A stretch of DNA of 64,000 nucleotides, taken from assembly GCA_028719205.1 (NCBI GenBank), contig JAQUKH010000009.1, positions 1 to 64,000 of the forward strand. Reading direction: 5' to 3'. Position numbers and translations under genes: made by a program. Of the stretch, positions 12,018 to 34,138 are shown one piece after another. The DNA is from a bacterium (GTDB taxonomy: Bacteria; JACRDZ01; JAQUKH01). Within the stretch, counting starts at the first letter, position 1; each line of letters opens with the position of its first letter. The notes beneath the pieces were generated by a model. The model worked only from the letters and a program-made list of their open reading frames with translations, was not told the DNA's origin and did no database searches.

Positions 12018-12020
12018 ATT

Positions 12021-12491
12021 ATGGATATACAAAAGGATGTTGTAGAAAAAATAAAAGAGCGTTTCCCTGATGCGGTGAAAGATGTTTCTTCTTTCCGTGA
12101 CCAGCAGACAATAGTGGTAGATAAGAAATTTATTATTGATGTCTGTAAGTTTTTGAAAGAAACGCAGGAATTAGATTTTAGTTATTTGGTTGATTTAACG
12201 GCGGTTGATTTTCCTGAAAGAGATGCCCGGTTTAAAATGGTTTATAATTTATATTCAATATCTCAATCTAAAAGAATATTTATAAATGTGAATGTTGATT
12301 TGGATGATTTGGTTGTTCCTTCTCTTACCTGTTTATGGGAATCCGCTAATTGGGCAGAACGTGAAGCCTATGATATGTTTGGAATAAAATTTTCAGGGCA
12401 TCCGAATCTAAAAAGGCTTTTTATGCCGGAAGATTTTGAAGGATTTCCTTTGCGTAAAGATTTTTTATTGGATGGGGAGGGCTTAGAATAA
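12021..12491 (+). CDS. nuoC: NADH:quinone oxidoreductase subunit C
   Basis: 'ANWAEREAYDMFGI.F.GHP.L.R...PLRKDF'. Confidence 0.96.
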   Translation: MDIQKDVVEKIKERFPDAVKDVSSFRDQQTIVVDKKFIIDVCKFLKETQELDFSYLVDLTAVDFPERDARFKMVYNLYSISQSKRIFINVNVDLDDLVVPSLTCLWESANWAEREAYDMFGIKFSGHPNLKRLFMPEDFEGFPLRKDFLLDGEGLE

Positions 12492-12492
12492 G

Positions 12493-13665: not shown

Positions 13666-13673
13666 GAGTTATT

Positions 13674-14627
13674 GTGGCGCTTTTACTTTTAATATTAGAA
13701 TCTCTATTGATATTTGTTTTTATACTACTTTTTTGCGTAGCTTATATAATTTTAGCTGAACGAAAAATTTTGGGGCATATGCAAGGACGTTTTGGGCCAA
13801 TGCATACAGGCTGGCACGGGATGCTGCAGCCGATCGCGGATATCCTTAAATGTTTAATTAAAGAAAATATAATGCCGACGGCGGCTGATAAGATCGTGTT
13901 TATTCTGGCCCCGGTTATGTCAATTTTGCCTGCTATTATGTGTCTGGCAGTTATTCCTTTCAGTAAAAATATCTATGCGGCCGATTTAAATATCGGGGTG
14001 CTTTATCTTCTCGCGCTGGGTTCTTTGGGTGTATACGGAGTAGCCACATGCGGTTGGGCGGGAAATAGTAAATACGGGCTTTTAGGAAGTATCCGTTCCA
14101 CGGCTCAATTAATAAGCTATGAGGTTCCCATGGGCCTGGCTGTTTTAGGGCCCGTTATGATGGCAAGGTCTTTGAATTTGATAAAAATAGTTGAAGCGCA
14201 AAAATCCTTTTGGTACATACTTATTCAACCTGTCGGATTTTTTATTTTCGTGGTATGCTCCGCGGCAGAGACTAATCGTATCCCTTTTGATTTACCTGAA
14301 GCTGAAACAGAGTTGGTCGCGGGTTTTCATGTTGAGTACAGCGGATTTAAATTTGTCGCGTTTTTTCTGGCAGAGTATATGCACATGTTTGTGACATCGG
14401 CTATGGCGGCTATCCTGTTTTTAGGCGGGTGGAAGGGGCCATTTTTCCCGGGGCCTATCTGGTTTATGATCAAGGTCTATTCATTTTTAGTACTTTATAT
14501 ATGGGCAAGAGGGACATTCCCGCGGTATCGTTATGATCAACTGATGCAGTTAGGATGGAAATTTTTGCTTCCGCTTTCTCTGGCAAATTTAGTATTAACA
14601 AGTATAGGAATAGTTATTTTTGGATAA
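13674..14627 (+). CDS. nuoH: NADH:quinone oxidoreductase subunit H
   Basis: 'ERK..G..Q.R.GP', 'AETNRIPFDLPEAETELVAGF..EY', 'PRYRYDQLM'. Confidence 0.97.
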   Translation: MALLLLILESLLIFVFILLFCVAYIILAERKILGHMQGRFGPMHTGWHGMLQPIADILKCLIKENIMPTAADKIVFILAPVMSILPAIMCLAVIPFSKNIYAADLNIGVLYLLALGSLGVYGVATCGWAGNSKYGLLGSIRSTAQLISYEVPMGLAVLGPVMMARSLNLIKIVEAQKSFWYILIQPVGFFIFVVCSAAETNRIPFDLPEAETELVAGFHVEYSGFKFVAFFLAEYMHMFVTSAMAAILFLGGWKGPFFPGPIWFMIKVYSFLVLYIWARGTFPRYRYDQLMQLGWKFLLPLSLANLVLTSIGIVIFG

Positions 14628-14630
14628 AAT

Positions 14631-15101
14631 ATGGGTAACTTTTTAGAAAAAATATTTTTATTGGAACTTTTTAAAGGGATGGGGGTAGTCTTTAAGCATG
14701 TGTTTATTAAGCCTGTTACAAGAATGTATCCTTTTGAAAAGCCGGTTTTGCCTAATTCTTCCCGCGGGCTGCATACTTTAATGCGTGACGCGGATACCGG
14801 GAATGAGCGTTGTGTCGGATGTTCATTATGCGTAAAGATATGCCCCAGCGGTGTGATCCATATGGTTACATCAAAAGGTGAAATGAATCAAAAACGGATA
14901 GATGAATATGAAATTGATATCAGCCGGTGCGCGTTTTGCGGTTTATGCGTGGATATTTGTCCTAAGAGCGCGATTGTTATGTCTGACCGTTTTGAGTTAG
15001 CTGTTTATGATAGAAAAAATTTATCATATAACAAGAATTTACTTTTAAAGATCGGTGAAGTGAAACAGAAGGAAAGTAAAGAGAAAGGAAAAGACAAATA
15101 G
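14631..15101 (+). CDS. nuoI: NADH:quinone oxidoreductase subunit I (2x[4Fe-4S])
   Basis: CVGCSLCVKICP and CAFCGLCVDICP. Confidence 0.95.
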   Translation: MGNFLEKIFLLELFKGMGVVFKHVFIKPVTRMYPFEKPVLPNSSRGLHTLMRDADTGNERCVGCSLCVKICPSGVIHMVTSKGEMNQKRIDEYEIDISRCAFCGLCVDICPKSAIVMSDRFELAVYDRKNLSYNKNLLLKIGEVKQKESKEKGKDK

Positions 15102-15616
15102 TGAAACAGGTTGTGTTTTTTATACTCTCTATTATTTCAATTTTTTCGGCATTAATGGTTATCAGCCGGAAAAACGTTGTTCACAGCGCGCTTTCTCTGG
15201 TTTTATTATTTTTCTCAACTTCAGGGCTTTTTGTTTTAATAGGGGCGGAATTGGTAGCCGCGCTGCAGATTTTTCTTTATGCCGGCGCTATAATAGTTAT
15301 CTATCTTTTTGTTATCATGATGATAGACCTGAGAAAAGGAACAACCGATGATATCGGTACAATGCCTAAGATGTTTATTGTCGGCGCGGGGGTTTTATTT
15401 TTCGCGGAAATAATTTATTTACTTTCAAAAGCAAATTACTCCGGGATCAAGGATATTTATTCCGGTGAAAAAATAAAAGAGTTAGGCGGCATGACTGGAG
15501 TTTTAGCAAAAATAATGTATACAAAATATTTATACCCGTTTGAGATAGTTTCACTGATTTTACTTATAGCCATGATCGGGGCGATCGTTTTAGCAAAAAG
15601 GGCGGATAAAAAATGA
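15101..15616 (+). CDS. nuoJ: NADH:quinone oxidoreductase subunit J
   Basis: 'QIFLYAGAI...FVIM', 'PFEIVSLILLIAMIGAI'. Confidence 0.95.
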   Translation: MKQVVFFILSIISIFSALMVISRKNVVHSALSLVLLFFSTSGLFVLIGAELVAALQIFLYAGAIIVIYLFVIMMIDLRKGTTDDIGTMPKMFIVGAGVLFFAEIIYLLSKANYSGIKDIYSGEKIKELGGMTGVLAKIMYTKYLYPFEIVSLILLIAMIGAIVLAKRADKK

Positions 15617-15915
15617 TACCTTTATATTATTATACTATTTTAAGCGCGGTTTTATTTGTGATCGGCCTTATCGGATTTTTGATAAGGAGGAATATAATTC
15701 TTTTGTTCATGAGCATTGAGGTTATGCTGAACGCGGTTAATATTAATTTAGTGTCATTTTCATCTTATTATGATTCTTTAGACGGGCAAATACTTTCAAT
15801 ATTTGTTATGGCGATAGCGGCGGCAGAAGCCGCGGTAGGATTTGGTATACTTATTGCGTTTTATCGTAATAAGAATGTAATTGACAGCGATAAGGCTGAC
15901 TTAATGAAATGGTAA
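15613..15915 (+). CDS. nuoK: NADH:quinone oxidoreductase subunit K
   Basis: 'SIEVMLNA', 'AAAEAAVG'. Confidence 0.96.
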   Translation: MIPLYYYTILSAVLFVIGLIGFLIRRNIILLFMSIEVMLNAVNINLVSFSSYYDSLDGQILSIFVMAIAAAEAAVGFGILIAFYRNKNVIDSDKADLMKW

Positions 15916-15921
15916 AAATAA

Positions 15922-17421
15922 ATGGATAAAAATAACATGATGGTCCCTATACTTATTATTTTTCCCTTGATCTGTACCGCGCTTGTAACATTTTTCGGCG
16001 AGAAAAACAAATTTACGCGTAATTTGTTCGCTATGATCCCGGCGCTGGTTACGTTTATTCTTGTAGTTAAATTAGCACCGGCGGTTTTAGACGGGGAAAG
16101 ATTCTATTTTACGTTTATAGACCGCGCGCCTTTTTTAATTCAATTCCGTATAGATTGTTTCGCGCTTTTAATGCTTATCGTTGTATCGTTTTTATGGATA
16201 TTTACTGTTTCGTACTCATATGGATATATGGCGGATGAGCATTCCCAGACACGGTATTATACCGCGTTGACCGGCTGTTTAGGAATAGTTGTCGGAATAG
16301 TTGTCGCGGCAAATTTATTTACGCTGTTTATTTTCTTTGAAATATTTACCTGTTGCGTTTATCCGTTAGTAATACATGAAGAGACCGATGAGTCATTTCG
16401 GTCCGGTGTAATGTATGGGGCTTATCTTTTAGGCGGAGGTTCTCTTATTTTCGCGGGGATGTTATTGCTATATTATTATTCAAACGGAAATTTAACATTT
16501 ACTAATTTTGGTATCCCGGGATTGGCTTTGGCGCCAAAATGGGCGCTATATCTTATGTTTTTTCTTTTCATGGCGGGTTTCGGCGTGAAGGCCGCGATCA
16601 TGCCTCTGCATGCGTGGCTCCCGCGGGCGATGGTGGCTCCAACCCCGATCAGTGCCCTTCTTCACGCGGTAGCAGTAGTAAATATGGGGCTTTACGGGGT
16701 AATAAGGGTTATTTACAATATTTTTGGGCCACAGTTATTCTCAGCCCTTCAGATGGATACCATTTTAGCCATTTTTGCCGCGATGACGATCATAAGCGCG
16801 GCGCTTATCGCTTTAAGGCAGAAGCAGATTAAGAAAATGCTGGCATATTCAACAGTTAACCAGTTGAGTTATGTTATTCTTGGTGTTTCCTCGGTGAATC
16901 CATACGCTTTTATGGGCGCGCTACTGCATATTTTTTATCACGCGCTTATGAAAATTACTTTATTTTATTCCGCTGGAACTATAATTAAACAGACCGGAAA
17001 GACTGATCTTAAGGATATGTCCGGGCTAGCCAAAAAAATGCCGATCACTTGTTTAGGTTTTACGATCGGCGCTATCGGGATAATCGGATTGCCGCCGATC
17101 GCAGGATGGATAAGTAAATGGAATATGGTTGAAGGATTTCTGAAAATTAACCAGCCTGTACTGGCGACAGTTTATATGATAAGCAGCATAATTGAATTAG
17201 GATATTTTTTACCTCCCATACTATGGGCATATTTCGGGAAAGAGATAGAATATGATCCTAAAAAATATAAAGTTGATAAACAAAAATGGGAAGCACCTGT
17301 TAACATGCTGGTCCCGATCGGCATGGTAACAATATTGTCTCTGGCTTTTGGATTATTCGGCTCGGTTCCGGTTCAGTTGTCAAAGGCTGTGGTAGCGGAA
17401 TTGCTAACAAAGACCTTTTAA
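15922..17421 (+). CDS. Extra antiporter-like subunit 1 (MrpD/NuoL-M-N family)
   Basis: TM5 'FFE', TM7 'GFGVKAA..PLHAWLP.AMVAPTPISALLHA', 'LAYSTVNQL', TM12 'GWISKW'. Confidence 0.92.
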   Translation: MDKNNMMVPILIIFPLICTALVTFFGEKNKFTRNLFAMIPALVTFILVVKLAPAVLDGERFYFTFIDRAPFLIQFRIDCFALLMLIVVSFLWIFTVSYSYGYMADEHSQTRYYTALTGCLGIVVGIVVAANLFTLFIFFEIFTCCVYPLVIHEETDESFRSGVMYGAYLLGGGSLIFAGMLLLYYYSNGNLTFTNFGIPGLALAPKWALYLMFFLFMAGFGVKAAIMPLHAWLPRAMVAPTPISALLHAVAVVNMGLYGVIRVIYNIFGPQLFSALQMDTILAIFAAMTIISAALIALRQKQIKKMLAYSTVNQLSYVILGVSSVNPYAFMGALLHIFYHALMKITLFYSAGTIIKQTGKTDLKDMSGLAKKMPITCLGFTIGAIGIIGLPPIAGWISKWNMVEGFLKINQPVLATVYMISSIIELGYFLPPILWAYFGKEIEYDPKKYKVDKQKWEAPVNMLVPIGMVTILSLAFGLFGSVPVQLSKAVVAELLTKTF

Positions 17422-17433
17422 CGAAGGGGGCGT

Positions 17434-18921
17434 ATGTTTCTGTCACCTAATTATTTACCTTTAATTGCAATTGTTGTCCCGATCATATCTATTTTGATCA
17501 GGCCGATAGTTGAGAACAAAAAGCATTATTTAGTGGCGTGCATAGCGCATTCTATAAGTTTTCTATGTGTGCTTGGAATGTATCCTTCAGTTGTCATGGA
17601 AGGAAAAACACTGGAAATTTTGTTTGACACAGGACTTGGGCCTCAATTACATTTCAGGGCTGATCTGGTCGGTTTCTATTTTGCTTTTGTCGCGTCTTTC
17701 ATGTGGGTACTGGCATCCATTTACTCTATTGAGTATATGAAAAAGGAGCATGAGGAGAGGAGATTTAATATATTTTCTTCTCTGTCTTTTGCTGGTATGC
17801 TCGGTGTTGTTTTTACCGGGAATTTATTCAGTTTATATTTGTTTTTTGAATTACTGACTGTGTCCTCATCAGTTCTTGTGTTTCATGAACAGAGCGAAGA
17901 GGCTATACGGACCGGATTAAAATATCTTTTTATGGGAGTTTTTGGCGGGCTGCTTTTGCTTTTTGCGATCATTGCTACATATTCAGTAGCGGGGCATGGA
18001 GATTTGAATAATTTAGGGATAAAGGAATTGCAGTCGTCACCGCTTTTGATGTTTATTTTCTGGGGATATATTATCGGGTTTGGTGTAAAGGCCGGAATGT
18101 GGGGTGTCCATATATGGCTTCCCAGCGCGCATCCGATCGCGCCCAGTCCCGCATCAGCTTTGCTTTCAGGCGTAATGATCAAGGCCGGGGCTTATGGGAT
18201 TTTTAGAACAGTGTATAATATTTTTGGCGCTGAATTTTTGGGCCAGAATCATGTGTTTATGATAAATTGTGTTCTGATGCTTGGGCTCGCGGGTATTTTT
18301 TACGGGTCGGCGGCGGCTATTACACAGAAAGAGCTGAAGAAAATGCTGGCTTATTCGAGCATATCACAGATAGGTTATATTATTATGGGGATAGCCCTTC
18401 TGACTAAAAATGGATTAGAGGGCGCGTTGATACATGTTTTGAACCATGCAATATTCAAAGGGCTTTTGTTCTTTTGCGCAGGGGCTTTTATATATAAAAC
18501 AGGAAAACGGCAATTAAGCGATTTAAAAGGAATTGGGAAGATAATGCCGAAAACAACATTAATGTTTACAATAGCCGCGGCGTCGATTATCGGGCTTCCG
18601 CTATTTAATGGTTTTGTCGGTAAATGGTTTTTGGCATGGGGGGCATTGGACGCGGCAAAGGCCGGAGTGTATGGAAAAAGCACAGGTATCGTTGCCTTGG
18701 GAGTTCTTCTTTTAAGCAGTTTAATGAATTTAGTATATTATGCTCCGATAGTTATCGGCGCGTGGTTTGGGGAAGCGGGAGAAGTATCTGATAAAAAGGA
18801 TCCAAATTTTTTAATGCTGATACCTATGTATATTTTGGGCGCGCTTATTTTGATCTTAGGTATTGCCCCGGCAATACCCGTAAGTATTTGTCAAAGAATT
18901 GCGGGAGGATTTTTCCAATAA
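17434..18921 (+). CDS. Extra antiporter-like subunit 2 (MrpD-like)
   Basis: 'FFE', 'GFGVKAG...HIWLPSAHPIAPSPASALLSGVMIK', 'LAYSSISQIG', 'GFVGKW'. Confidence 0.92.
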   Translation: MFLSPNYLPLIAIVVPIISILIRPIVENKKHYLVACIAHSISFLCVLGMYPSVVMEGKTLEILFDTGLGPQLHFRADLVGFYFAFVASFMWVLASIYSIEYMKKEHEERRFNIFSSLSFAGMLGVVFTGNLFSLYLFFELLTVSSSVLVFHEQSEEAIRTGLKYLFMGVFGGLLLLFAIIATYSVAGHGDLNNLGIKELQSSPLLMFIFWGYIIGFGVKAGMWGVHIWLPSAHPIAPSPASALLSGVMIKAGAYGIFRTVYNIFGAEFLGQNHVFMINCVLMLGLAGIFYGSAAAITQKELKKMLAYSSISQIGYIIMGIALLTKNGLEGALIHVLNHAIFKGLLFFCAGAFIYKTGKRQLSDLKGIGKIMPKTTLMFTIAAASIIGLPLFNGFVGKWFLAWGALDAAKAGVYGKSTGIVALGVLLLSSLMNLVYYAPIVIGAWFGEAGEVSDKKDPNFLMLIPMYILGALILILGIAPAIPVSICQRIAGGFFQ

Positions 18922-19403
18922 TGAGAAAGATAAAGTTTTTGATATTATTATTAACATTATTTATGATTTTCTCCGTTTCTCTAAAAGCGGAAGAGAATGA
19001 AGTTGTGAGTGAGGAAGGCCAAAGCGCCCCGCATGAGACCGGAACGCCTTTAGTATATTATTTGAACTGGGCGGGCCTGATTGCGATGTGTGTGATTGTT
19101 TTGAGGGAGGTTAAAAATAAAAAAAGTGATAAAAAACACCAGGAAGATAAAAAAGATATTGAGTTTTATGAAGCCGGTTCTGAAAAACCAAATGATCCGG
19201 AGCATAAGTTCCAAAAACCGGTGCTTAAACCGGTTCTTTTGATACTTTTAGCGGTGTTAATATTTTTTGGCGAGCAGTTGCCGGTATTATCTGATTTTCA
19301 TGAAAATTTAGCTGCCGGGTATTTTAGATTTATTTTTAAAATTCTTATAGGTGTTTTAATGTTATCGTACGGCCTTTCCAGTATGGAAGAGGAACATCAT
19401 TAG
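18921..19403 (+). CDS. Uncharacterised membrane protein inside the nuo-like operon (~160 aa)
   Basis: ATG overlaps the upstream TAA (taATG). Signal-peptide-like N-terminus, about 3 further hydrophobic segments, ends EEEHH. Confidence 0.8.
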   Translation: MRKIKFLILLLTLFMIFSVSLKAEENEVVSEEGQSAPHETGTPLVYYLNWAGLIAMCVIVLREVKNKKSDKKHQEDKKDIEFYEAGSEKPNDPEHKFQKPVLKPVLLILLAVLIFFGEQLPVLSDFHENLAAGYFRFIFKILIGVLMLSYGLSSMEEEHH

Positions 19404-19412
19404 GAGATATTA

Positions 19413-20963
19413 ATGGTTATCGAAAGCAGTTTACCTTTATTTGCTATCTTTATTCCTTTATTGGGATCAATTGCGATTCCGATATTAAGGGGGAAAATAG
19501 AGAAATATGTTAATCAATTTACTGTATTAATAACGGTCTTGACCTTTGCGATGGTTTTGCTGATGTATCCGGATATAGGCCGCGGGAATATTCTGGAGAA
19601 GAGCTTTAATTCAGGATTTAGTATTGGTTTTCTTTTTCAGGTAGACGCTTTAGGTTATTTTATTGGATTTATTTCCGCCTTTATCTGGATGCTGACAAGT
19701 TTTTATAGTATTGAGTACATGGCTAATAAAGGCAATTTACTGAGATATAATATGTTTTCTTTGCTTTCTCTTGCAGGTATGCTCGGAGTTGTTTTTACCG
19801 GGAATCTTTTTAGTTTGTATCTTGCGTTTGAATTATTGACGGTTGCGTCCTATGTTTTAATTATACAGGAAGAAAATTCTAAAGCCATGCGGGCAGGTAT
19901 GATCTATCTTTTTATGGGGATCGCAGGCGGATTGATACTTTTATTTTCGATTTTAGCAACATACGCAATGGCGGGAACCGGAGATTTTACGGGTCTAGCC
20001 TCAAAATTATCAGGGAGCCCTTTATTACATTCTTTATTGCCATATGTTTTCTGGGGTTATATTATCGGTTTTGGAGTAAAGGCAGGCCTTTTCCCATTTC
20101 ACGTATGGGTTCCTGAAGCATATTCCATAACGCCTTCTCCTTCATCTGCGCTTTTTGCCGGTGTAATGAAAAAAGCGGGGGCATATGGTATTTTACGCGC
20201 TATTTACAGTATTGTAGGGATGGATTTGCTTAGAGGTGAAACCATGCTGACAGTCTTGTTAGTTTTTTCACTGATAAGTATATTTTTAGGTTCTGCCATA
20301 GCTATATCACAAACAGAATTAAAAAAGATGCTTGCATATTCCAGTATCGCTCAGATCGGATATATTGTGTTGGGTTTTGCGCTCCTTACTCCAAGAGGCG
20401 CGACGGGCGGGACTTTACATATTTTAAATCACGCGTTAACAAAAAGTACTTTATTTTTAGCCGCAGGAAGTTTTATTTTTAAAAAAGGAATAGTAAATAT
20501 AGCTGATCTGGAAGGAATAGGGAAAAAAATGCCTGTTACTACTGCCTGTTTCACTATTGCCGGCTTATCAATGATCGGATTTCCGCCTTTTTGTGGTTTT
20601 ATCAGTAAATGGTTTCTGGCGTTAGGTTCATTGGATGTGGTGAATTATGGCTCATATAGTTTTTATGTCGGGGTGATTGCGTTAAGTACACTAATGCTTA
20701 GCAGTTTTATGAATCTGGTTTATTACGGGCCTGTTATTTATAAGGCATGGTTTGGAGGAGAAAATTCAGACAATCCTTCACTGGAATACGCGGTGACTGA
20801 TGAGGAATCAAAAATCGAGGATCCAAGTTTATATATGTTAATACCTTTAATTATTTTAACTGCCGGGATCGTGTGTTTTGGTATTTTTCCGCAGTTTCCT
20901 GTATCGTTCGTTCAAAAGATCGTAGATGGCTTTTTTTCTGCCGGAGGGTGTATAGTTAAATGA
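19413..20963 (+). CDS. Extra antiporter-like subunit 3 (MrpD-like, close paralog of subunit 2)
   Basis: 'AFE', 'FWGYIIGFGVKAG', 'GVMKKAG', 'ELKKMLAYSSI', 'GFISKW'. Confidence 0.92.
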   Translation: MVIESSLPLFAIFIPLLGSIAIPILRGKIEKYVNQFTVLITVLTFAMVLLMYPDIGRGNILEKSFNSGFSIGFLFQVDALGYFIGFISAFIWMLTSFYSIEYMANKGNLLRYNMFSLLSLAGMLGVVFTGNLFSLYLAFELLTVASYVLIIQEENSKAMRAGMIYLFMGIAGGLILLFSILATYAMAGTGDFTGLASKLSGSPLLHSLLPYVFWGYIIGFGVKAGLFPFHVWVPEAYSITPSPSSALFAGVMKKAGAYGILRAIYSIVGMDLLRGETMLTVLLVFSLISIFLGSAIAISQTELKKMLAYSSIAQIGYIVLGFALLTPRGATGGTLHILNHALTKSTLFLAAGSFIFKKGIVNIADLEGIGKKMPVTTACFTIAGLSMIGFPPFCGFISKWFLALGSLDVVNYGSYSFYVGVIALSTLMLSSFMNLVYYGPVIYKAWFGGENSDNPSLEYAVTDEESKIEDPSLYMLIPLIILTAGIVCFGIFPQFPVSFVQKIVDGFFSAGGCIVK

Positions 20964-23464
20964 TAGTACAATCAATAACTAATCAAATGGGGTTGGAATC
21001 CGCTCTTCCGATATGGATAATTCTGGTTCCGATATTAACGGCGTTTATAAGTATATTTGTCGCAAGGTTCAGCGAAGTTATGCGTAAATTTGTTGTTATA
21101 GGCGGATCTGTCCTGGATTTTATTCTTGTCTTATTAATGGGCAAACCTGTTTTATCCGGAGGCGGGATAGCAATTTCAATGCCTTGGATGGAAAGATTTA
21201 ATCTGGGATTCCGGGTGGATCATATTGGTTATTTAATGGTGCTTTTAGTAAGTTTTGTCTGGCTGTTGGCCACGATTTATGGCCAGGGTTATTTTAAAAA
21301 GGAAGACAAAGGCGCCCGTTATGACTTTTTCAGTTTGATTACAATGTCAATGAACCTGGGGGTTATGCTTGCGGGAGATTTCCTCACTTTGTTCATATTT
21401 TTTGAAGGGCTGGTAATATTTCCTTACAGTATGATAGCTCACAAGGGTGATGACAAATCGATTAAAGGCGCGAATTTTTATCTTTATGTTGGTGTTGTTA
21501 CAGGTTTGATGCTGTTAGGCGGAATGATCATGCTGAACTATTTTACCGGAAGCCTGGATATAATCAGCCAGGGCGCGAAATTAAGCAGTATTCCGAATCA
21601 GGCAAAATATATTATAGCCTTCTTAATGATTGCTGGTTTTGGCGGAAAGGCCGCATTGTTCGGCGAACATATCTGGGTTCCCAGGATGTATCCGAATACA
21701 TTAAGCATTACAGCCTGCTTATCAAGCGGCGCGATGATCAAGGCGGGGGCATATGGAATATTCAGGGTTTTAAACTTAATTTATAGCGGATTTGACAGTA
21801 ATTTGCTTACGCAGGAAAATATAGGTTATGTGTTGATCATGGTTGGTGTCGTGACAATGTTTTTAGGTGTTTTAAACGCGCTGATCAGCAGTGATTCGCA
21901 GGAAATGCTGGGGTACCATAGCGTAAGCCAGATGGGTTATATCATGATGGGTTTAGGCTGTGCGGCTTATATGGGGAAAGACGGGGCAATGGGATTGTCG
22001 GGCGCGATATATCATATTGTAAATCACAGCCTTTTTAAGGCAAGTTTGTTTTTATGCGTAGGCGCGGTGTATTACGCCACAGGCGAACAGGACATGTATA
22101 AATCAGGCGGATTATTTAAAAAAATGCCTTTGACCGCGATCTGTCTGTTAATAGCTGTACTGGGTATTTCGGGGGTGCCGGGCTTTAACGGTTTTGCCAG
22201 TAAAACATTATTACATCATTCCATTTTAGAAGCGTATGAACATTCCGCGCTTTATTTTGGCAAGCCTGATATTATGCTGCGATTAGCGGAAATAATTTTT
22301 GTTTTAACCGCGGCAGGGACATTCGCTTCAAATATTAAGCTGTTCATTTTAGTATTTTTAGGTAAAGAGAAAGAGGTATCGAAAGACGCGAAAGAAGTAC
22401 CTGTTTTAATGAAGATAAGCTTAATAGGTTTTTCAGCTGTAATAATATTTTTAGGATTATTCCCAAATTGGCTTTTAGAGCATATAATCGGGCCGGGCCT
22501 CAGTGCTTATGGATATGATCCTTCATCTCACGCGTACCATCTGATTTATAATATTCATGCAAGCGATATCCACTCTACTTTGCCTATCTTGTATGAACCG
22601 TTGACAAAGGCGTTTTTTACGAGTTCAGCTGTTCTTCATAATTTATTGCCCGGCGCTACAGCTATATTTTTTGGAGGTATGTATTTTATATTAGGAATGC
22701 GGTTTGGATGGTTTCATGTTTATGTTACGGAAAAATTTACCGTGGAGTTTTATTACAGAAAAGTTTTTGACGGTTTCAAATATTTTTGTGTAAAGCCGTG
22801 CGTTATTTTTGCCATGTGGGTCAGAGAGTTGATTTCTGTTTTGATGGTTTATATCTGGGTGCCCGGAAGCCATGAAGGAATTTTCATAAAACGTCCTGCG
22901 CCTAAAGCAAAAGGTTTAGAACTTTTTAGCGACGCGGAAACCAAATTCAATCTGGTTTATGATGAGAAGGATAAGCAGCAGCCAGGCGCGCTGGATATGC
23001 TGGCGCGTGTAGAAGGCGGAACAAATGGCCAGAAAAGGCCGGGAGCGTGGGAAGTGTTTGGAAGGGCGGATACAAATTACGATAACATGCTTGGCGGGGC
23101 TATTCAAAGACAGGGAGGTTTGTGGAGGATTTTTGGCAGTACTGATATGACATATGATACGATTTTAGATCGTGTTATTGCCGCTATCGTAGGTTTAGAA
23201 GAAATACCGATTTCGAGAATTGAAGAAGTAAAAGTTTTAGAAAAGCTGCCTGGAGAGGATTTGGTGGCGAATTATTATATATTCTGTGACGCGAATAAAT
23301 CAGTAGATATGAATGTTATTGATGGTTTTGTAAATTATATAGCGGATATGACAAGCGGGCTGGGCAGTATATTAAGGAAATTACAGACGGGCAGAGTTTC
23401 AAGTTACGCGTACAGTTTTGTTTTGGGCGCGGTAGTTTTAATGGCTGTATTATTGTTGAGATAG
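20960..23464 (+). CDS. nuoL: NuoL-like subunit, 834 aa: MrpD-like core, long repeat-containing extension, canonical NuoL C-terminus
   Basis: Core 'FFE', 'GFGGK', 'GAMIKAG', 'GFASK'. Tail 'D..VIDGFVN...LRKLQTGRVSSYAY...G' is the NuoL helix end plus last TM. Confidence 0.85.
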   Translation: MIVQSITNQMGLESALPIWIILVPILTAFISIFVARFSEVMRKFVVIGGSVLDFILVLLMGKPVLSGGGIAISMPWMERFNLGFRVDHIGYLMVLLVSFVWLLATIYGQGYFKKEDKGARYDFFSLITMSMNLGVMLAGDFLTLFIFFEGLVIFPYSMIAHKGDDKSIKGANFYLYVGVVTGLMLLGGMIMLNYFTGSLDIISQGAKLSSIPNQAKYIIAFLMIAGFGGKAALFGEHIWVPRMYPNTLSITACLSSGAMIKAGAYGIFRVLNLIYSGFDSNLLTQENIGYVLIMVGVVTMFLGVLNALISSDSQEMLGYHSVSQMGYIMMGLGCAAYMGKDGAMGLSGAIYHIVNHSLFKASLFLCVGAVYYATGEQDMYKSGGLFKKMPLTAICLLIAVLGISGVPGFNGFASKTLLHHSILEAYEHSALYFGKPDIMLRLAEIIFVLTAAGTFASNIKLFILVFLGKEKEVSKDAKEVPVLMKISLIGFSAVIIFLGLFPNWLLEHIIGPGLSAYGYDPSSHAYHLIYNIHASDIHSTLPILYEPLTKAFFTSSAVLHNLLPGATAIFFGGMYFILGMRFGWFHVYVTEKFTVEFYYRKVFDGFKYFCVKPCVIFAMWVRELISVLMVYIWVPGSHEGIFIKRPAPKAKGLELFSDAETKFNLVYDEKDKQQPGALDMLARVEGGTNGQKRPGAWEVFGRADTNYDNMLGGAIQRQGGLWRIFGSTDMTYDTILDRVIAAIVGLEEIPISRIEEVKVLEKLPGEDLVANYYIFCDANKSVDMNVIDGFVNYIADMTSGLGSILRKLQTGRVSSYAYSFVLGAVVLMAVLLLR

Positions 23465-23471: not shown

Positions 23472-25007
23472 ATGTTTCCAATTTTGTCAATTTTAACTTT
23501 TTTACCTCTTGCAGGCGCGTGTCTGGTTCTTCTCTTTATCCCTAAAGATAAAGAAGAGCTGATCAGAAAAATTACATTAGTAATTTCACTTGTGGAATTA
23601 ATTTTGGCAGTATTCCTTGTTTATGAATTTAATCCGGGAAAGATCGAAATGCAATTTGTGGAAAAATTGCCGTGGATCCCGTCGGTAGGCATTGAATATT
23701 TTATGGGTGTAGACGGAATAAGTGTTTTGATCATTCTTTTGACTGCTATTTTAACGTCGGTTTCCATCCTTGCCTCTTGGACCTCGATTAAAAACAGAGT
23801 TAGAGAATTTTATCCTTTACTTCTTTTTATTGAAACTGCTGTAATAGGTTCACTGGCTTCATTAGATTTTGTGCTTTTTTATATTTTCTGGGAAATTATG
23901 CTTATTCCGATGTTTTTCCTGATCGGCGTTTGGGGTGGAGAGAATAGGCTGTACGCGGCTGTAAAGTTTTTCCTTTTTACCTTGTTTGGCAGCGTATTAA
24001 TGCTTGTAGGTATTTTGGCTTTATATTTTAAATTTTATGAATTGACCGGTGGGGCATTAGGTGGCGGTGAATTAACTTTTAATATTTTAAAATTAAGATC
24101 TGTTTCTTATCCGATTAATTTTCAGCTTTGGGTATTCGCGGCATTTTTTGTGGGATGGGCGATCAAAATACCGATGTTTCCATTCCATACATGGCTTCCG
24201 GATGCCCATGTACAGGCTCCGACCGCGGGGAGTATTATTCTTGCGGGTGTTTTATTAAAGATGGGAGCATATGGATTTTTACGTTTCAGTTTACCTTTAT
24301 TCCCATATGCGAGCCATGCCTTTGCGCCTTTGGTCGGGATCTTAGCGGTTATCGCGATAATATATGGGGCATTTCTGGCTATTTCTCAAAAGGATATGAA
24401 AAAACTGGTGGCATATTCCAGTGTCAGCCATATGGGTTTTATAGTATTGGGAATTTTTTCATTCAGTCAATTCGGTCTGGAGGGGGCAATACTTCAATTA
24501 TTTAATCATGGTGTTACTACCGGGGCATTATTTTTGTGTGTTGGTTTGCTTTATGACCGCGCGCATACAAAACAGATAGAGGATTTTGGGGGATTATCTA
24601 AACAGGTTCCGATATTTACTTTTTTCTTCACTTTGTTCCTGCTGGCTTCAATGGGGGTGCCGGCCCTTTCAGGTTTTATGGGGGAATTTTTGATACTGAC
24701 CGGGGCGGTAAAAAATAATGTTATTCTTCATAATGGATTATATAGATTTTTTGGTGTTTTTGCGGTAGCGGGTATTCCTTTAGGCGCGGCTTATTCCTTG
24801 TGGTTGTATCAGCGAGTAATGCTGGGGCATAAGGTAAATCCTAAACATGTTAATATGCTTGACCTGAATCTTAGGGAGGGCATATGCCTGGCAACACTTG
24901 CAATATTTGTTATCTGGATCGGTGTTTATCCTGATCCATTTTTAAGGATTTTTCGCGTTGCCGCTGAACAAATTGTTTTACAGGCAGGAAAGGCTGGAGG
25001 TATTTAG
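23472..25007 (+). CDS. nuoM: NADH:quinone oxidoreductase subunit M
   Basis: 'FYIFWE', 'KIPMFPFHTWLPDAHVQAPTAGS..LAGVLLKMG', 'AYSSVSHMG', 'GFMGEF'. Confidence 0.96.
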   Translation: MFPILSILTFLPLAGACLVLLFIPKDKEELIRKITLVISLVELILAVFLVYEFNPGKIEMQFVEKLPWIPSVGIEYFMGVDGISVLIILLTAILTSVSILASWTSIKNRVREFYPLLLFIETAVIGSLASLDFVLFYIFWEIMLIPMFFLIGVWGGENRLYAAVKFFLFTLFGSVLMLVGILALYFKFYELTGGALGGGELTFNILKLRSVSYPINFQLWVFAAFFVGWAIKIPMFPFHTWLPDAHVQAPTAGSIILAGVLLKMGAYGFLRFSLPLFPYASHAFAPLVGILAVIAIIYGAFLAISQKDMKKLVAYSSVSHMGFIVLGIFSFSQFGLEGAILQLFNHGVTTGALFLCVGLLYDRAHTKQIEDFGGLSKQVPIFTFFFTLFLLASMGVPALSGFMGEFLILTGAVKNNVILHNGLYRFFGVFAVAGIPLGAAYSLWLYQRVMLGHKVNPKHVNMLDLNLREGICLATLAIFVIWIGVYPDPFLRIFRVAAEQIVLQAGKAGGI

Positions 25008-25012: not shown

Positions 25013-26470
25013 ATGGAACAATTAAATTATTTGAGTTTATTACCGGAAATAGTTATTATTTTGGCAGGAATACTGGTTATTGCTGCTGATCTTATAATAG
25101 ATAAGAAGGATAATATTATCAGCGAAGTGATCTCCGTACTTGGATTAATTATTGCGCTTTTTTTAACAGGCAATCAATTCTTAAATCCGGAGATCATATC
25201 TCAGAATAATATGCTGATATCTGATTCCTATGCTGTGTTTTTTAAGGTAGCTCTGATCATACTTTCTTTAATGGTCATTTTAATCTCATCACATCATATC
25301 AGAGAACGCGGTATTACTCATCGGGCTGAATATTTTACTTTTATTCTTTTCGCCACAGTAGGTATGATGATTATGGCCGGAAGTTTGGATCTTGTAACTG
25401 TTTATGTCGGACTGGAGTTAATGGCAATTTCCATATATATTCTTGTCGGGATTTCCAGGACGGAATTCCTTTCAAATGAGGCAGCGTTAAAGTATTTTCT
25501 TTTAGGCCTGTTAGCTACCGCTTTTCTGCTTTACGGGATCTCGTTCACTTATGGAATGTTCGGGACAACTAATCTGGTTGTAATTAAAAACTTTTTGCAA
25601 AATAATACAACTGCTAACAGCGGTTATATACTGGTTTTGGTTTTTCTTGTAATAGCGTTTGGTTTTAAGGTTGCGGCTGTTCCCTTTCATATGTGGACCC
25701 CTGACGCGTATGAGGGCGCGATGACTCCGGTTACCGGTTTTATGTCTGTCGGCCCGAAATTGGCCGCGTTCGCGGTGTTAGGCAGGGTTTTTGTTTATAG
25801 CTTATTGACATTAAAGGCTGAATGGACGCTTATTTTGACTATTGTTTCAATATTAACTATGACTGTGGGAAATGTGGTTGCGATCGCGCAGACTAATATA
25901 AAAAGAATGCTGGCTTATTCCAGTATTGCCCACGCGGGTTATTGCTTAATGGGGCTTGTGGCGGCAGGCGGGTTGGCGGGAAGCCTGGGATTGCAGTCAG
26001 TTCTTTTTTACCTGAGCGGGTATCTTTTTATGAATGTAGGCGCGTTCTCTATTATAATATTTTTAAATAAGAAAGGTATTTCAGGATCTGAGCTGGATGA
26101 TTTTTCAGGTTTAAATGAACGCTATCCCGGTATCGCGTTAATGATGAGTGTTATTTTGCTTTCTCTGGCGGGGGTACCGCCGACGACGGGCTTTGCCGGA
26201 AAATTGTATGTTTTTATGGCCGCGGTAAAATCAAAATATATGTTTTTAGCGGTTATAGGTGTGCTCAATAGCGTAATTGCTTTATATTATTATCTTAGAA
26301 TAATTGTTTATATGTATATGAAAAAACCTGCTGACCTGAAAGAGGAGACTAATAGGTCTGTGCCGTTATTATTAGTGTTAGGAATCGCGGTAGTTGCGAT
26401 TTTGGTGCTTGGTATTTATCCTGAACCGGTACTAAATTTTGCAAAATCGGCTGCTGGAGGTATGTTTTAA
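25013..26470 (+). CDS. nuoN: NADH:quinone oxidoreductase subunit N
   Basis: 'EAALKYF', 'FKVAAVPFHMWTPDAYEGA', 'KRMLAYSSIAHAG', 'GFAGK', 'YYYLR'. Confidence 0.96.
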   Translation: MEQLNYLSLLPEIVIILAGILVIAADLIIDKKDNIISEVISVLGLIIALFLTGNQFLNPEIISQNNMLISDSYAVFFKVALIILSLMVILISSHHIRERGITHRAEYFTFILFATVGMMIMAGSLDLVTVYVGLELMAISIYILVGISRTEFLSNEAALKYFLLGLLATAFLLYGISFTYGMFGTTNLVVIKNFLQNNTTANSGYILVLVFLVIAFGFKVAAVPFHMWTPDAYEGAMTPVTGFMSVGPKLAAFAVLGRVFVYSLLTLKAEWTLILTIVSILTMTVGNVVAIAQTNIKRMLAYSSIAHAGYCLMGLVAAGGLAGSLGLQSVLFYLSGYLFMNVGAFSIIIFLNKKGISGSELDDFSGLNERYPGIALMMSVILLSLAGVPPTTGFAGKLYVFMAAVKSKYMFLAVIGVLNSVIALYYYLRIIVYMYMKKPADLKEETNRSVPLLLVLGIAVVAILVLGIYPEPVLNFAKSAAGGMF

Positions 26471-28272: not shown

Positions 28273-31200
28273 ATGGTCAAAATAACAATAGATGGTAAAG
28301 AGGTTCTTGTTCCTGAAAATATAAATATTTTAGAGGCCGCGCAGCAGGCCGGTATTTATATACCTAAATTATGTTTTCATAGCAAACTAAGCCGGTACGG
28401 GGCCTGCAGGGTCTGTCTGGTTAAGATAGAAGGGGTTCCAAAATTATCGGCCGCTTGCGCTGTTATGTGTACGGAAGGAATGATCATAACTACTGATACC
28501 CCTGAGATAAATAAACTTAGAAAAACTGTAGTTGAACTTATGCTTTTGTATCATCCTCTGGATTGCCTGGTTTGCGATAAGGGCGGGGAGTGTGAGCTTC
28601 AGACTCTGACATTCAAGCTGGGAGTTACGGAAGACCGGTTCAAAATGCATTTCCAGAAATATGAGAGAATTGATGTTAATCATCTTATCGCGCGGGATAT
28701 GAAAAAATGTATTCTTTGCGGTAAATGTGTCAGGGTTTGTGATGAGATCCGCGGGAGGGGTGCGATCGGTTACACTTATCGCGGTTTTAATACCCGTGTA
28801 GATTTTCCATTCGGCCGTGTTTCGAATTGTGAGGTTTGCGGGCAGTGCCTTGCGGTCTGTCCTGTCGGAGCTTTGGCACCGCGATTTTCTGAATATGAAG
28901 CAAGGCCGTGGGAAATGAAACAGGTGAAAAGCATATGCCCTTATTGCGGATGCGGCTGTACGGTTATTTTAGATACTAAAGAAAATAAGATTGTAAGGAT
29001 CTCTTCTAAAGAAGGGCTTGGTGTTAATGACGGGAAGGTATGCGCGAAGGGCAGATTCGGGTATGATTTTGTAAATAATAAGTTCAGGTTAAAATATCCC
29101 CTGGCAAAAAAAGACGGGATGTTTGTTCCTGTGACATGGGATGAAGCATTAGATTTAATTGCCAATAATTTTAAGGAAATAACAGAAAAATACGGCAGTG
29201 ATAAAATTGGCGGCATTGGATCAAACCGGGTTACAAATGAAGAAAGTTATTTATTCCAGAAATTCATGCGGGCAGTCTTAAAGACAAATAACGTAGACAG
29301 CCAGATAAGAATCGAACACGCGGCTTCTTTCAAGGCATTAACTGATAGTTTTGGGTATGGAGCGGCTACTAATACCATACCGGAGATAGAAAATACAAAG
29401 GTTATTTTATTAATAGGAACAGATACTACTGAGACTATGCCTATTATTGGATTAGCAATTAAAAAAGCCATTAGAGCGAACAAGGCAAAATTAATTGTTA
29501 TTAACAGCCGCGAGATCGACCTGACAAAGTTTTCAGAAATGTGGTTTCAGGTAAAACCCGGGATAGAGCTTTTACTGCTTTCAGCCATGTTAAAGATAAT
29601 AATTGATGAGAAACTTTATAACGTGTCTTTTGTGGAAAAACGGACAGAAGATTTTGAAAAGGTAAAAATTAAACTCGAAAAATTATCCCTGGATAATGTG
29701 CAAAATGTAGCGGGGATCAGCAAGGAAAAAATTCAGGAGGCGGCAAGGCTTTACGCGGGCGCGGAAAGCGCGATGGTGATTTTCGGCCTTGAATTTGTTT
29801 TGCAGGAAAGAGCAGTTGATAACGTTTACACGCTGGTCAATCTGGTACTTGCATGCGGCCATATAGGTAAAGAAAATAACGGGATCATTCCCCTGCGCCA
29901 GACAAATAACGGCCAGGGAACTACAGATATGGGTGTTCTCCCGGATTATCTTCCCGGATATCAGTCAATATATTCTTCTTCAGTAAAAAATGATTTTGAA
30001 AAAAAGTGGAATACAAAACTTCCGGTTAATGTCGGTTTGACTGCCACAGAGATGATCCAGGCTATTCCTGAAGGGAAAATAAAGGGAATGTATATTGTCG
30101 GCTGTAATCCCGCGGTCTCCCATCCAAACGCGATACAAGTGGAAGAAAATTTAAAATCACTGGATTTTCTTGTTGTGCAGGATATATTTCTTTCTGAAAC
30201 AGCAAAGCTTGCGGATGTTGTTCTGCCCGCGGTAAGTTTCGCGGAAAAGGAAGGGACATTTACTAATACTGAGCGCAGGGTCCAGAAAATAAATAAGGCT
30301 ATAAAATCTTCCGCTGAAACCAGGCCGGATTGGAAAATAATCGTAAATCTGGCTATGAAGTTCGGATATGTAATGGAATATCTTTCAATAGAAGAAATAT
30401 TCCAGGAAATGACAAGCCTGGTTCCTATTTATAGAGGAATAACCTATTCAAGGCTTGAAGAAAAAGAACCTATATACTGGCCATGTGTTTCTCTGGAAGA
30501 TAAAGGCACGAAAATTTTATATCTGGACAGTTTTGAACGTGGAAAAGCAAAGTTTCATCCTGTTGAATATAAATATTCTACTTCACAGCCGACATTGCAT
30601 TTTCCTTACCGTATTATCACTAACGGTACCTTATTCCATCATAGAAGCGGGGTTATGACCAGAAGGTCAAAAGGAATGAGTTTTGTTGAGGAAGAGCCGA
30701 AATTATGTGTGCATCCTAATGACGCAAAGAAATTAGAGATAGAAGATAATTCGATAGTCAGGGTGGCAAGCAAGCAGGGCGAGATAGAAACTAAGGTTTT
30801 TGTTACAAATAAAGTTATGGAAGGAATGCTATTCCTGCCTTTGCACGCGAATTGGAATTCCTGTTTTAATATGCTTACTAAATCGACGCTGGATCCTTCA
30901 TCAAAGTCTCCTAATATGGAAGAAACCTTTGTGGATGTTATTCCTGTTACCAGAAAAAAAGAAATGGTGACTTTGAGCGTTAATGATAAAGAAATTACCG
31001 TTGAGCAAGGTACTACAATTCTGGAAGCCGCGAAAAAACTTGATATTTATATTCCAACACTTTGTTATCACAGTAAAATGTCTCCATTTGGCGCGTGCAG
31101 GCTTTGCCTTGTTGAGATCGAGGGAACAAATAAATTATTAGCCTCATGTATTACGCCTGTGTTAAATAACATGAAAGTTAAAACTGAGACGGATCCCGTG

Positions 31201-33639: not shown

Positions 33640-33655
33640 AAGTGAGGTGACTAAA

Positions 33656-34126: not shown

Positions 34127-34138
34127 GAGCGAAAAAAT

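What the first reader, a model, noticed from the sequence alone, without database searches (positions are those of the whole stretch)
22733..23464. NuoL lateral-helix region lengthened by ~160 aa of internal repeats, possibly a ruler for three extra subunits
Seen in sequence: about 190 residues separate 'KFTVEFYY' (the position of the helix start) from the canonical 'D..VIDGFVN...LQTG.V..YA' end; ordinary NuoL has roughly 25-30. The insert has four related units, GLELFSDAETKFN / GALDMLARVEG / GAWEVFGRADTNYD / GLWRIFGSTDMTYD, spaced 24, 19 and 25 aa apart. Established: in 2M complexes the amphipathic helix gains about 26 aa to span one extra subunit. Inference: three spacings of about that size match three extra antiporter genes. 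This is independent support that they sit in the same membrane arm.
Basis: partly seen in the sequence, partly recalled or inferred. Interest (0 to 1): 0.9.

Follow-up and report, generated by a model that had tools for sequence, protein, structure and literature searches.

The report
Repeat-built long strap on NuoL-like subunit
The outermost pump subunit of an unusual six-pump respiratory complex I carries a side "strap" about 160 residues longer than normal, partly built from 25-residue repeats; strap length rises with pump number across relatives, but repeats are not one per pump.

Summary
The 834-aa gene at 20960-23464 sits where nuoL should be, between nuoK plus three extra MrpD-like genes and nuoM/nuoN. 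It has about 160 extra residues inside its lateral-helix region.

Only two of the four proposed repeat units are robust: residues 695-718 and 719-743, a 25-aa period. One more is marginal and one is weak.

The strict "one unit per extra subunit" ruler fails. Same-genus orthologous operons with the same six antiporter-like genes carry 2, 2 (+2 weak) and 4 (+2 weak) units. In one of them (G002) the X1 frame is broken.

A looser version holds. Across 28 complete Mrp/Nuo clusters, strap length rises with the number of antiporter-like genes (Spearman 0.79, about 39 aa per gene). The window's 232 aa lies on that line. A phylogenetically controlled test had too few pairs to confirm it.

The clear units are under purifying selection and are predicted helical at low confidence. 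A sister lineage expanded a different 30-aa unit at the same place.

The protein is an Mrp-derived core with a NuoL-type C-terminal anchor. The scan saw a similar repeat-built strap before, on an archaeal Mrp cluster.

Verdict: a new variant of a known kind (the 2M / Manganitrophaceae HL extensions).

The parts
20960..23464 (+). L-like subunit (834 aa): an MrpD/MrpA-like 14-TM core, then TM15, a long lateral element and TM16. It occupies the nuoL position.
   Evidence: ORF. Pfam Proton_antipo_M and Proton_antipo_N. Best PDB sequence hits are MbhH and MrpA. The NCBIfam NuoL model scores 184 bits against a cutoff of 407.5. Fold match to MrpA 7qru_A has Z 44.7 and to NuoL 8e9g_L Z 44.1.
22625..22705 (+). 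TM15 (residues about 556-582).
   Evidence: AF2 helix 556-582 with pLDDT above 90.
22742..22855 (+). First, conserved part of the lateral helix (residues 595-632). It contains the 'VEFYY...FCVKP' motif.
   Evidence: AF2 helix 595-632, pLDDT about 80. It aligns to HL up to E. coli NuoL residue about 561. Hydrophobic moment 0.31, reached by 3.6% of shuffles.
22856..23311 (+). The insert (residues 633-784), about 150-160 aa that canonical NuoL lacks.
   Evidence: Composition is 10.5% Gly, net charge -6. AF2 pLDDT is 31-67, with helices 651-673, 677-685, 696-717, 719-743 and 767-779.
22910..22984 (+). Degenerate unit 1 (residues 651-675).
   Evidence: BLOSUM score 21 against unit 3; 0.8% of 1000 shuffles reach it. 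Not found by the unit HMM.
22985..23041 (+). Doubtful unit 2 (residues 676-694).
   Evidence: Second-best window only, score 15. Not found by the unit HMM.
23042..23113 (+). Clear repeat unit 3 (residues 695-718).
   Evidence: Unit HMM E 3e-16. AF2 helix 696-717. Hydrophobic moment 0.40, reached by 4.3% of shuffles.
23114..23188 (+). Clear repeat unit 4 (residues 719-743).
   Evidence: Unit HMM E 7e-16. AF2 helix 719-743. dN/dS of units 3+4 is 0.043 against G001 and 0.21 against G002.
23189..23311 (+). Conserved linker 'GLEEIPIS...LPGE...YYIFCDANKSVD' (residues 744-784).
   Evidence: Conserved in the three nuo orthologues and recognisable in the Mrp paralogues. AF2 gives coil 744-766 and helix 767-779.
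23312..23461 (+). NuoL-type end of the lateral helix (785-808) and the TM16 anchor (813-833).
   Evidence: The last 66 aa hit only NuoL/NdhF/Nqo12 chains, 4 of 4 hits at E up to 10, best 0.007. Hydrophobic moment 0.56, reached by 0 of 2000 shuffles.
15922..17421 (+). Extra antiporter-like gene X1 (499 aa).
   Evidence: TM5 Glu and TM7 Lys conserved.
17434..18921 (+). Extra antiporter-like gene X2 (495 aa).
18921..19403 (+). Small membrane protein (160 aa) with no family. It travels with the four-antiporter module.
   Evidence: Homologues occupy the same position in G001 nuo and in the Mrp clusters L036 and L080.
19413..20963 (+). Extra antiporter-like gene X3 (516 aa). Its stop overlaps the start of L.
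23472..25007 (+). nuoM.
   Evidence: TIGR01972 scores 614.5 bits against a cutoff of 263.8.
25013..26470 (+). nuoN.
   Evidence: TIGR01770 scores 438.8 bits against a cutoff of 332.6.

Best explanation
The 834-aa protein is the distal, strap-bearing subunit of a complex-I-type enzyme whose membrane arm is encoded with six antiporter-like subunits.

Its core derives from a four-subunit Mrp module (three MrpD-like proteins plus an MrpA-N-like protein). That module has taken the place of NuoL. Its last ~50 residues are NuoL-type, so the strap can anchor next to NuoN/J/K.

The lateral element between TM15 and TM16 has been lengthened by tandem duplication of a ~25-residue amphipathic helical unit, plus a conserved linker. 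This makes it long enough to run along a longer row of subunits.

It works as a segmented, glycine-jointed clamp with slack, not as a rigid ruler. Length must exceed a minimum that grows with subunit number. Copy number drifts by replication slippage.

Shown: the anatomy, the repeats, their conservation, the variation between species, and the length trend.
Inferred: that all six subunits sit in one arm, that the units lie on the cytoplasmic face of neighbouring subunits, and that the strap clamps them.
For: Gene order is nuoA-K, X1, X2, small, X3, L, nuoM, nuoN, nuoE, nuoF, nuoG-fdh. It is the same in two congeners and similar in another family of the phylum.

All six antiporter-like proteins keep the TM5 Glu, TM7 Lys and TM12 Lys/Glu.

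In a tree of core domains, L forms a starred (100) six-row clade. The clade holds the three same-genus nuo L proteins, the G003 nuo L, the genome's own Mrp-operon paralogue and a metagenomic Mrp L'. That paralogue sits in an mrpEFGBC + 3 MrpD + L' operon and carries related W..F..D..Y units.

The C-terminal 66 aa hit only NuoL-type chains.

Two lineages expanded different units at the same site: 75-nt and 90-nt tandem repeats at 88-89% matches.

The clear units have dN/dS 0.043 and 0.21, against 0.07 and 0.10 for the core.

The units are predicted as helices in two independent AF2 models and are moderately amphipathic.

Lateral length rises with the number of antiporter-like genes.
- 28 complete clusters: rho 0.79, slope 38.6, intercept 7.6.
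- Without the focal phylum, 23 clusters: rho 0.74.
- Motif-anchored measure, 18 clusters: rho 0.85; 13 without the focal phylum: rho 0.79.

Published precedent: 26-aa HL insertions accompany an extra pump in Nitrospira 2M complex I and in Manganitrophaceae Complex_I_3 (passages read in PMC9040806). MrpA braces Mrp with HL from TMH15 to TMH16 (passages read in PMC7419157).
Against: - AF2 confidence in the insert is low: pLDDT 31-67 and 30-54. Helicity is a prediction, not a result.
- At a constant six genes the lateral length ranges from 184 to 309 aa. Within n = 4 it ranges from 114 to 313.
- One left-truncated cluster with at least five antiporter genes (L082) has a motif-anchored length of only 98 aa, no longer than its four-gene relatives.
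- The trend is largely between clades. Only 3 independent pairs lie on supported branches: the trait moves the same way in 1-2, the opposite way in 0, and is unchanged in 1-2. The sign test cannot reach significance.
- Units 1 and 2 are not significantly amphipathic; 14% of shuffles reach their moment.
- Nothing here shows physically that X1-X3 assemble with NuoM/N.
Confidence: 0.6

Rival explanations
1. Strict ruler. Each ~25-aa unit docks on one extra antiporter-like subunit, so unit number equals the number of extra genes.
For: - The unit length of 25 aa is close to the published 26-aa insertion per extra pump (passages in PMC9040806).
- The window has four unit-like stretches, giving three spacings, and three extra genes.
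- G002 has the shortest strap. It also has a frame break in X1, and no small gene was found there.
Against: - Robust units number 2 in the window, 4 in G001 and 2 in G002, with the same six antiporter-like genes.
- The Mrp paralogues of the three congeners also differ: about 3, 4-5 and 1 unit.
- The regression slope is 39-44 aa per gene, not 25.
- An earlier scan note on an archaeal cluster reached the same negative result.
Confidence: 0.05
2. Tolerated expansion. The region between the two halves of HL is a permissive loop in which slippage-prone repeats come and go. They have no role in spanning subunits, and the length trend reflects shared ancestry.
For: - Copy number differs between congeners.
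- Recent DNA-level tandem duplications exist.
- pLDDT is low.
- The independent-pairs test is not significant.
- There are large outliers, such as 313 aa at n = 4 and 244 aa at n = 3.
Against: - dN/dS of the clear units is as low as that of the core.
- Different units expanded at the same site in separate lineages.
- The trend survives removal of the focal phylum and a change of measure.
- All three complete two-gene clusters with a motif-anchored measure have 64-65 aa, and none of the four six-gene operons has less than 174 aa.
Confidence: 0.22
3. Docking or regulatory appendage. The insert binds something other than the antiporter-like subunits, for example the small 160-aa membrane protein, the enlarged formate-dehydrogenase-bearing peripheral arm, or lipids.
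For: - The small protein co-occurs with the module in nuo and Mrp clusters.
- It was not found in G002, which has the shortest strap.
- The conserved 'GLEE...PGE' linker is predicted as non-helical.
Against: - Similar repeats occur in Mrp operons that have no peripheral arm.
- No domain family or fold match covers the insert.
- The small protein is predicted to be membrane-embedded with a signal-like N-terminus. The lateral helix is said to lie on the cytoplasmic side (passage in PMC7419157).
Confidence: 0.1

Closest known systems
NuoL of Nitrospira-type '2M' complex I (Chadwick et al. 2018; known to me only through passages of PMC9040806, and recall)
   Same: An extra antiporter-like subunit gene in the nuo operon goes with a longer lateral helix. 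A 2M-like operon in my own sample (L097: NuoL of 655 aa plus three further antiporter-like genes) shows a triplicated 'DG.V' helix unit and a lateral length of 123 aa, against 76-99 aa in three-gene operons.
   Different: - 26 aa there against about 160 aa here.
- One extra NuoM there against three extra MrpD-like genes here.
- A bona fide NuoL core there. Here the core is Mrp-derived and fails the NuoL model cutoff.
MrpD2 of 'Ca. Manganitrophaceae' Complex_I_3 and rhizobial 'green' complex I (PMC9040806, passages read)
   Same: NuoL is replaced by MrpD-like proteins, and the last of them carries the HL with an insertion. It was proposed to serve high-stoichiometry or reverse electron transport.
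   Different: [quoted passage not shown] Here there are four and six.
- The insertion is 26 aa there. Here it is about 160 aa, repeat-built and variable between species.
Helix HL of MrpA in Mrp antiporters (PDB 7qru, 6z16; PMC7419157)
   Same: Best fold match: 7qru_A, Z 44.7, rmsd 2.6, 564 residues aligned. The closest relatives by tree are L' subunits of Mrp operons. HL runs from TM15 to TM16 and braces the neighbouring MrpD.
   Different: - There is no fused MrpB-like C-terminal domain.
- The C-terminal anchor is NuoL-type.
- The gene lies in a nuo operon.
- The strap is about three times as long.
Earlier scan note e1-3216593: repeat-built lateral helix on an archaeal MrpA-like subunit (AI note)
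   Same: Tandem 25-26-residue units make up the strap. Their number varies among relatives and is not one per neighbouring subunit.
   Different: That case is an archaeal Mrp cluster. This one is a bacterial complex-I operon with six antiporter-like genes and a NuoL-type anchor.

Membership tests
NuoL / ND5 (complex I subunit L) | Gene lies between nuoK and nuoM in a nuo operon. | tested here: met
   though three extra genes and a small ORF intervene after nuoK.
NuoL / ND5 (complex I subunit L) | Antiporter-like core with conserved TM5 Glu, TM7 Lys and TM12 Lys. | tested here: met
   E149, K230 and K415 are invariant in a 67-sequence alignment and across the six paralogues. The helix numbering is recalled.
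NuoL / ND5 (complex I subunit L) | C-terminal TM15, lateral helix and TM16, with the 'IDG.VN...Q.G..Y' end. | tested here: met
   4 of 4 PDB hits of the last 66 aa are NuoL/NdhF/Nqo12.
NuoL / ND5 (complex I subunit L) | Scores above the curated NuoL family cutoff. | tested here: not met
   TIGR01974 scores 184.4 bits against a cutoff of 407.5. NF005141 scores 196.5 against 556. MrpD, HyfB and MrpA models score higher, but also below their cutoffs.
MrpA (N-terminal antiporter domain with HL) | Closest relatives are strap-bearing subunits of mrpEFGBC operons. | tested here: met
   Starred (100) six-row clade that also holds L033 (own genome's Mrp operon) and L080.
MrpA (N-terminal antiporter domain with HL) | Fused MrpB-like C-terminal domain, and residence in an mrp operon. 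| tested here: not met
   No MnhB domain. The protein ends at TM16, and the context is nuo.
2M-type / Complex_I_3-type extended complex I | Extra antiporter-like gene(s) inside the nuo operon. | tested here: met
   Three extra genes, all MrpD-like.
2M-type / Complex_I_3-type extended complex I | A single ~26-aa insertion in HL per extra pump. | tested here: not met
   The insert is about 160 aa. Unit number varies from 2 to 4 (robust units) at constant gene number.
2M-type / Complex_I_3-type extended complex I | All pumps assemble in one membrane arm. | not testable with these tools
   Needs a structure of the whole arm (about 3,500 residues) or biochemistry.

The most novel reading that the evidence does not exclude
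This is a complex I with six proton-pump modules, one more than the published record of five. Its distal four-subunit Mrp cassette is held by a modular strap assembled from duplicated ~25-aa helical units.

Across the Mrp/Nuo superfamily the strap follows a simple design rule of roughly 40 residues per antiporter-like subunit, met in different lineages by duplicating different units.

This would make strap length a sequence-only predictor of how many pumps a complex holds. It would also argue that HL is a flexible clamp rather than a rigid coupling rod.
Probability: 0.4. Interest if true: 0.75.

Novelty: new variant of a known kind. Interest (0 to 1): 0.6.

Why it matters
The number of antiporter-like subunits sets the H+/2e- stoichiometry of complex I. 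It therefore decides whether the enzyme can be driven in reverse to make low-potential reductant.

In 2022 five pumps was described as unique. This operon encodes six, together with a NuoG fused to a formate dehydrogenase.

The strap is the only covalent element that could tie such a long row together. A segmented, glycine-jointed, copy-number-variable strap bears on an old question: is helix HL a rigid piston or a mere clamp? This strap is a natural argument for the clamp.

If the length rule holds after proper phylogenetic correction, it gives annotators a simple way to tell whether neighbouring MrpD-like genes belong to one complex.

Tried and rejected
- Complex prediction of X3 (8-row alignment) with L residues 590-834 (4-row alignment) gave the verdict 'no answer', score 0.00. 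It counts neither for nor against binding. The tool was busy five times before it took the job.
- Independent-pairs test on the tree gave only 3 usable pairs and was not significant.
- I could not get the genomic context of P0005, the 654-aa, repeat-free closest relative outside the genus. The best single test of the idea is therefore left open.
- The genome search on the metagenome loci L080, L043, L046 and L082 failed because those records are not held. I could not extend L080's adjacent nuo operon or complete L082.
- My first TM-based lateral measure mis-set TM15 in several proteins (seen). I replaced it with a motif-anchored measure, and the trend persisted.
- The small protein is not similar to the N-terminal extensions of longer homologues (BLASTP E 0.93).
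- The Nitrospirota loci L001 and L002 proved to be a different system: an L-like protein without HL or TM16, next to cytochrome genes. They were not used in the counts.
- Two clusters were dropped from the counts. L046 has two strap-bearing proteins. L003 has a duplicated L.
- Literature searches for six-pump complex I or repeat-built HL found nothing beyond the 2M and Manganitrophaceae work. Supplements are closed, and the Chadwick 2018 paper itself was not in the library listing.
- (an RNA fold of the L/nuoM junction) was idle and bears on nothing.
Full report
WHAT IS THERE

The finding lies in the last 244 codons of an 834-aa ORF at 20960-23464 on the + strand. The ORF belongs to one long + strand operon:
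- nuoA, B, C, D, H, I, J, K (11191-15915)
- three antiporter-like genes that I call X1 (15922-17421), X2 (17434-18921) and X3 (19413-20963)
- a small 160-aa membrane ORF between X2 and X3 (18921-19403)
- the 834-aa gene
- nuoM, nuoN, nuoE and nuoF
- a 1788-aa NuoG-formate dehydrogenase fusion

nuoM and nuoN pass their curated NCBIfam cutoffs. X1-X3 and the 834-aa protein score best with MrpD, HyfB and MrpA models, and none reaches the NuoL cutoff: TIGR01974 gives 184 bits against 407.5. All six antiporter-like proteins keep the Glu, Lys and His residues that are invariant in the family.

THE OBSERVATION

'KFTVEFYY' starts at residue 592 and 'VIDGFVN' at residue 786, so the separation is about 190 residues as stated.

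The AlphaFold2 model used a 67-row alignment and has mean pLDDT 81.8. The core is above 90. The predicted elements are:
- TM15 at 556-582
- a helix at 595-632 (pLDDT about 80)
- a low-confidence stretch (pLDDT 31-67) with helices 651-673, 677-685, 696-717 and 719-743
- coil at 744-766
- helices at 767-779 and 785-808
- TM16 at 813-833

Residues 14-622 superpose on MrpA (7qru_A, Z 44.7, rmsd 2.6). Residues 13-618 superpose on E. coli NuoL residues 1-561. E. coli NuoL has 52 further residues and this protein has 216, so the excess is about 164 aa.

The last 66 residues hit only NuoL, NdhF or Nqo12 chains in the PDB: 4 of 4 hits at E up to 10, the best at 0.007, and no MrpA.

THE REPEATS

I built an HMM from six units taken only from the orthologues of two other species. 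In the window protein it finds two units, 695-718 (E 3e-16) and 719-743 (E 7e-16).

By ungapped BLOSUM scoring, unit 1 (651-664) resembles unit 3 better than 99.2% of 1000 shuffles. Unit 2 (676-689) is only the second-best window.

So there are two robust 25-aa units, one marginal and one doubtful.

RELATIVES

A search restricted to residues 540-834 found only 4 proteins with E of 0.001 or less among 2577 candidates in 5.8 billion sequences. These are the query itself and proteins of 893, 751 and 654 aa. Aligned, they differ by whole units.

The 893-aa and 751-aa proteins lie in the orthologous operons of two same-genus genomes, G001 and G002. Both operons have the same order: nuoK, X1, X2, X3, L, nuoM, nuoN.
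- G001 also has the small gene.
- In G002 the small gene was not found, and the X1 reading frame is broken once. That may be an assembly error.

Robust units number 4 in G001, 2 in the window and 2 in G002. G001 and the window each also carry the two degenerate upstream units.

In G001 the units are a DNA-level tandem repeat: period 75 nt, 3.4 copies, 88% matches. No such repeat is detectable in the window.

A genome of another family in the same phylum (G003) has a 1017-aa L in a similar operon. That protein carries a different 30-aa unit expanded at the same place: period 90 nt, 3.2 copies, 89% matches.

This refutes one unit per extra subunit.

ORIGIN

The same genome has, on another contig, an operon of mrpE, F, G, B, C followed by three MrpD-like genes and a 762-aa L' with related W..F..D..Y units. 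A metagenomic relative, L080, has the same Mrp cluster including the small gene.

In a tree of the core domains with the strap excluded, the nuo L proteins form a starred (100) six-row clade with these two Mrp L' proteins.

The nuo L therefore looks like a chimera: a four-subunit Mrp cassette placed where NuoL was, with a NuoL-type C-terminal anchor.

A full-library search returned many further L-like proteins of 700-1051 aa. Their tails are built from other repeated units, or from long charged helices.

DOES LENGTH TRACK SUBUNIT NUMBER?

Sample. I took 80 metagenome loci, the genome loci and the window. I called ORFs, marked antiporter-like genes with an HMM, and grouped adjacent ones into clusters.

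Selection. I kept clusters that:
- start right after mrpC or nuoK,
- are not cut by a contig end,
- hold one strap-bearing protein.

That left 28 clusters. L046 (two straps) and L003 (duplicated L) were dropped.

Measure 1: TM15 end to anchor-TM start.

| Antiporter-like genes | Median lateral length (aa) |
|---|---|
| 2 | 77 |
| 3 | 102.5 |
| 4 | 155 |
| 5 | 158 |
| 6 | 254.5 |

The six-gene values are 184 (G002), 232 (window), 277 (G001) and 309 (G003). Spearman rho is 0.79 (p 4e-7), the slope is 38.6 aa per gene and the intercept is 7.6. Without the focal phylum (23 clusters) rho is 0.74.

Measure 2: motif-anchored. Inspection showed that TM15 was mis-set in several proteins, so I repeated the analysis from a conserved motif. 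This gave 18 clusters with rho 0.85 and slope 44. The 13 clusters outside the focal phylum gave rho 0.79.

Results against the trend:
- The trend is mostly between clades. Only 3 independent pairs exist on supported branches, which is not significant.
- The scatter is large: 114-313 aa at n = 4.
- A left-truncated cluster with at least five genes (L082) has only 98 aa.

CONSTRAINT AND SHAPE

dN/dS of the two clear units is 0.043 against G001 and 0.21 against G002. The core gives 0.07 and 0.10, and the degenerate-unit region gives 0.18. dS is saturated, so these values are rough.

Hydrophobic moments:
- clear units: 0.40 and 0.37, each reached by 4.3% of shuffles
- NuoL-type HL end: 0.56, reached by 0 of 2000 shuffles
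- degenerate units: not significant (14% of shuffles)

A second AF2 model, of the G001 protein, again makes the units helical at low confidence.

Helices between residues 595 and 808 sum to 154 residues, about 231 Å at 1.5 Å per residue. From recall, HL is about 110 Å long and 26 aa (about 39 Å) is added per extra pump. That gives about 227 Å for three extra pumps. The agreement rests on recalled dimensions and low-confidence helices.

READING

The best reading is a segmented clamp, lengthened by unit duplication so that it reaches along a longer row of pumps. A loose minimum length is required rather than a counted ruler (confidence 0.6).

Rivals:
- a merely tolerated slippage-prone loop (0.22)
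- a docking appendage for another partner (0.1)
- the strict ruler (0.05)

LITERATURE

PMC9040806 (passages read) describes 26-aa HL insertions in Nitrospira 2M complex I and in MrpD2 of Manganitrophaceae Complex_I_3. It calls the five-pump enzyme unique.

PMC7419157 (passages read) describes MrpA's HL bracing the complex from TMH15 to TMH16 on the cytoplasmic side.

Five full-text searches found no six-pump complex I and no repeat-built HL. Supplements were closed.

The scan itself had noted a repeat-built strap on an archaeal Mrp cluster, with the same negative result on one unit per subunit (e1-3216593).

Noticed in passing
window 28273-33639 (+): A 1788-aa ORF fuses NuoG (residues 4-693), a HoxU-like Fe-S module (about 898-1106) and a formate dehydrogenase alpha subunit (1117-1785; TIGR01591 scores 1513 bits). 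In G003 the Fdh part is a separate 896-aa gene next to nuoF. Formate may feed this six-pump enzyme directly, or the enzyme may reduce CO2 in reverse.
   Followed up: partly
window 33647-36444 (+): Directly downstream lie a cNMP-binding protein, a second NuoE-like protein and a second NuoF-like protein with a C-terminal 2x[4Fe-4S] domain. A cNMP-binding gene also sits in the G003 operon.
   Followed up: partly
window 18921-19403 (+): A 160-aa protein with a signal-like N-terminus, a charged middle and C-terminal TM helices, and no family. It travels inside the four-antiporter module in both nuo (G001) and Mrp (L036, L080) clusters. tblastn did not find it in G002.
   Followed up: partly
L033 5231-14808 (own genome, another contig): A paralogous Mrp operon: mrpE, F, G, B, C plus three MrpD-like genes plus a 762-aa L' with about three W..F..D..Y units. 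Four-antiporter Mrp clusters of this kind are common in the metagenome sample: 10 of the 28 complete clusters, plus one 2M-type nuo operon with four genes.
   Followed up: partly
window 15922-17421 versus 20960-23464: X1 carries the 'LHAV..' motif in TM8, a His, which I recall as typical of NuoL/MrpA. The strap-bearing L carries the Lys typical of MrpD/NuoM/N. The two NuoL hallmarks are thus split between two proteins.
   Followed up: no
L031 about 5625-5831: In G002 the first ~75 codons of X1 are in a different frame from the rest. This is either a real frameshift or a MAG assembly error. The same genome has the shortest strap.
   Followed up: partly
L046 3024-13992: An Mrp cluster with six antiporter-like genes, two of which (814 and 840 aa) have long tails of 231-248 aa. 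It may be two straps in one complex.
   Followed up: no
L097 3654-10010: A 2M-type nuo operon: a 655-aa NuoL plus three more antiporter-like genes. Its HL shows three 'DG.V' units 28-30 aa apart, so the published 26-aa insertion also looks like a unit duplication.
   Followed up: no
P0007-P0014 (homologues): Many long L-like homologues start with a signal-like TM helix followed by a His/Glu-rich stretch of 40-100 aa. Its function is unknown.
   Followed up: no
L002 7819-13737: In Nitrospirota MAGs an X1-like gene and an L-like gene that lacks HL and TM16 sit beside large membrane cytochrome genes. This is a different system from complex I.
   Followed up: partly
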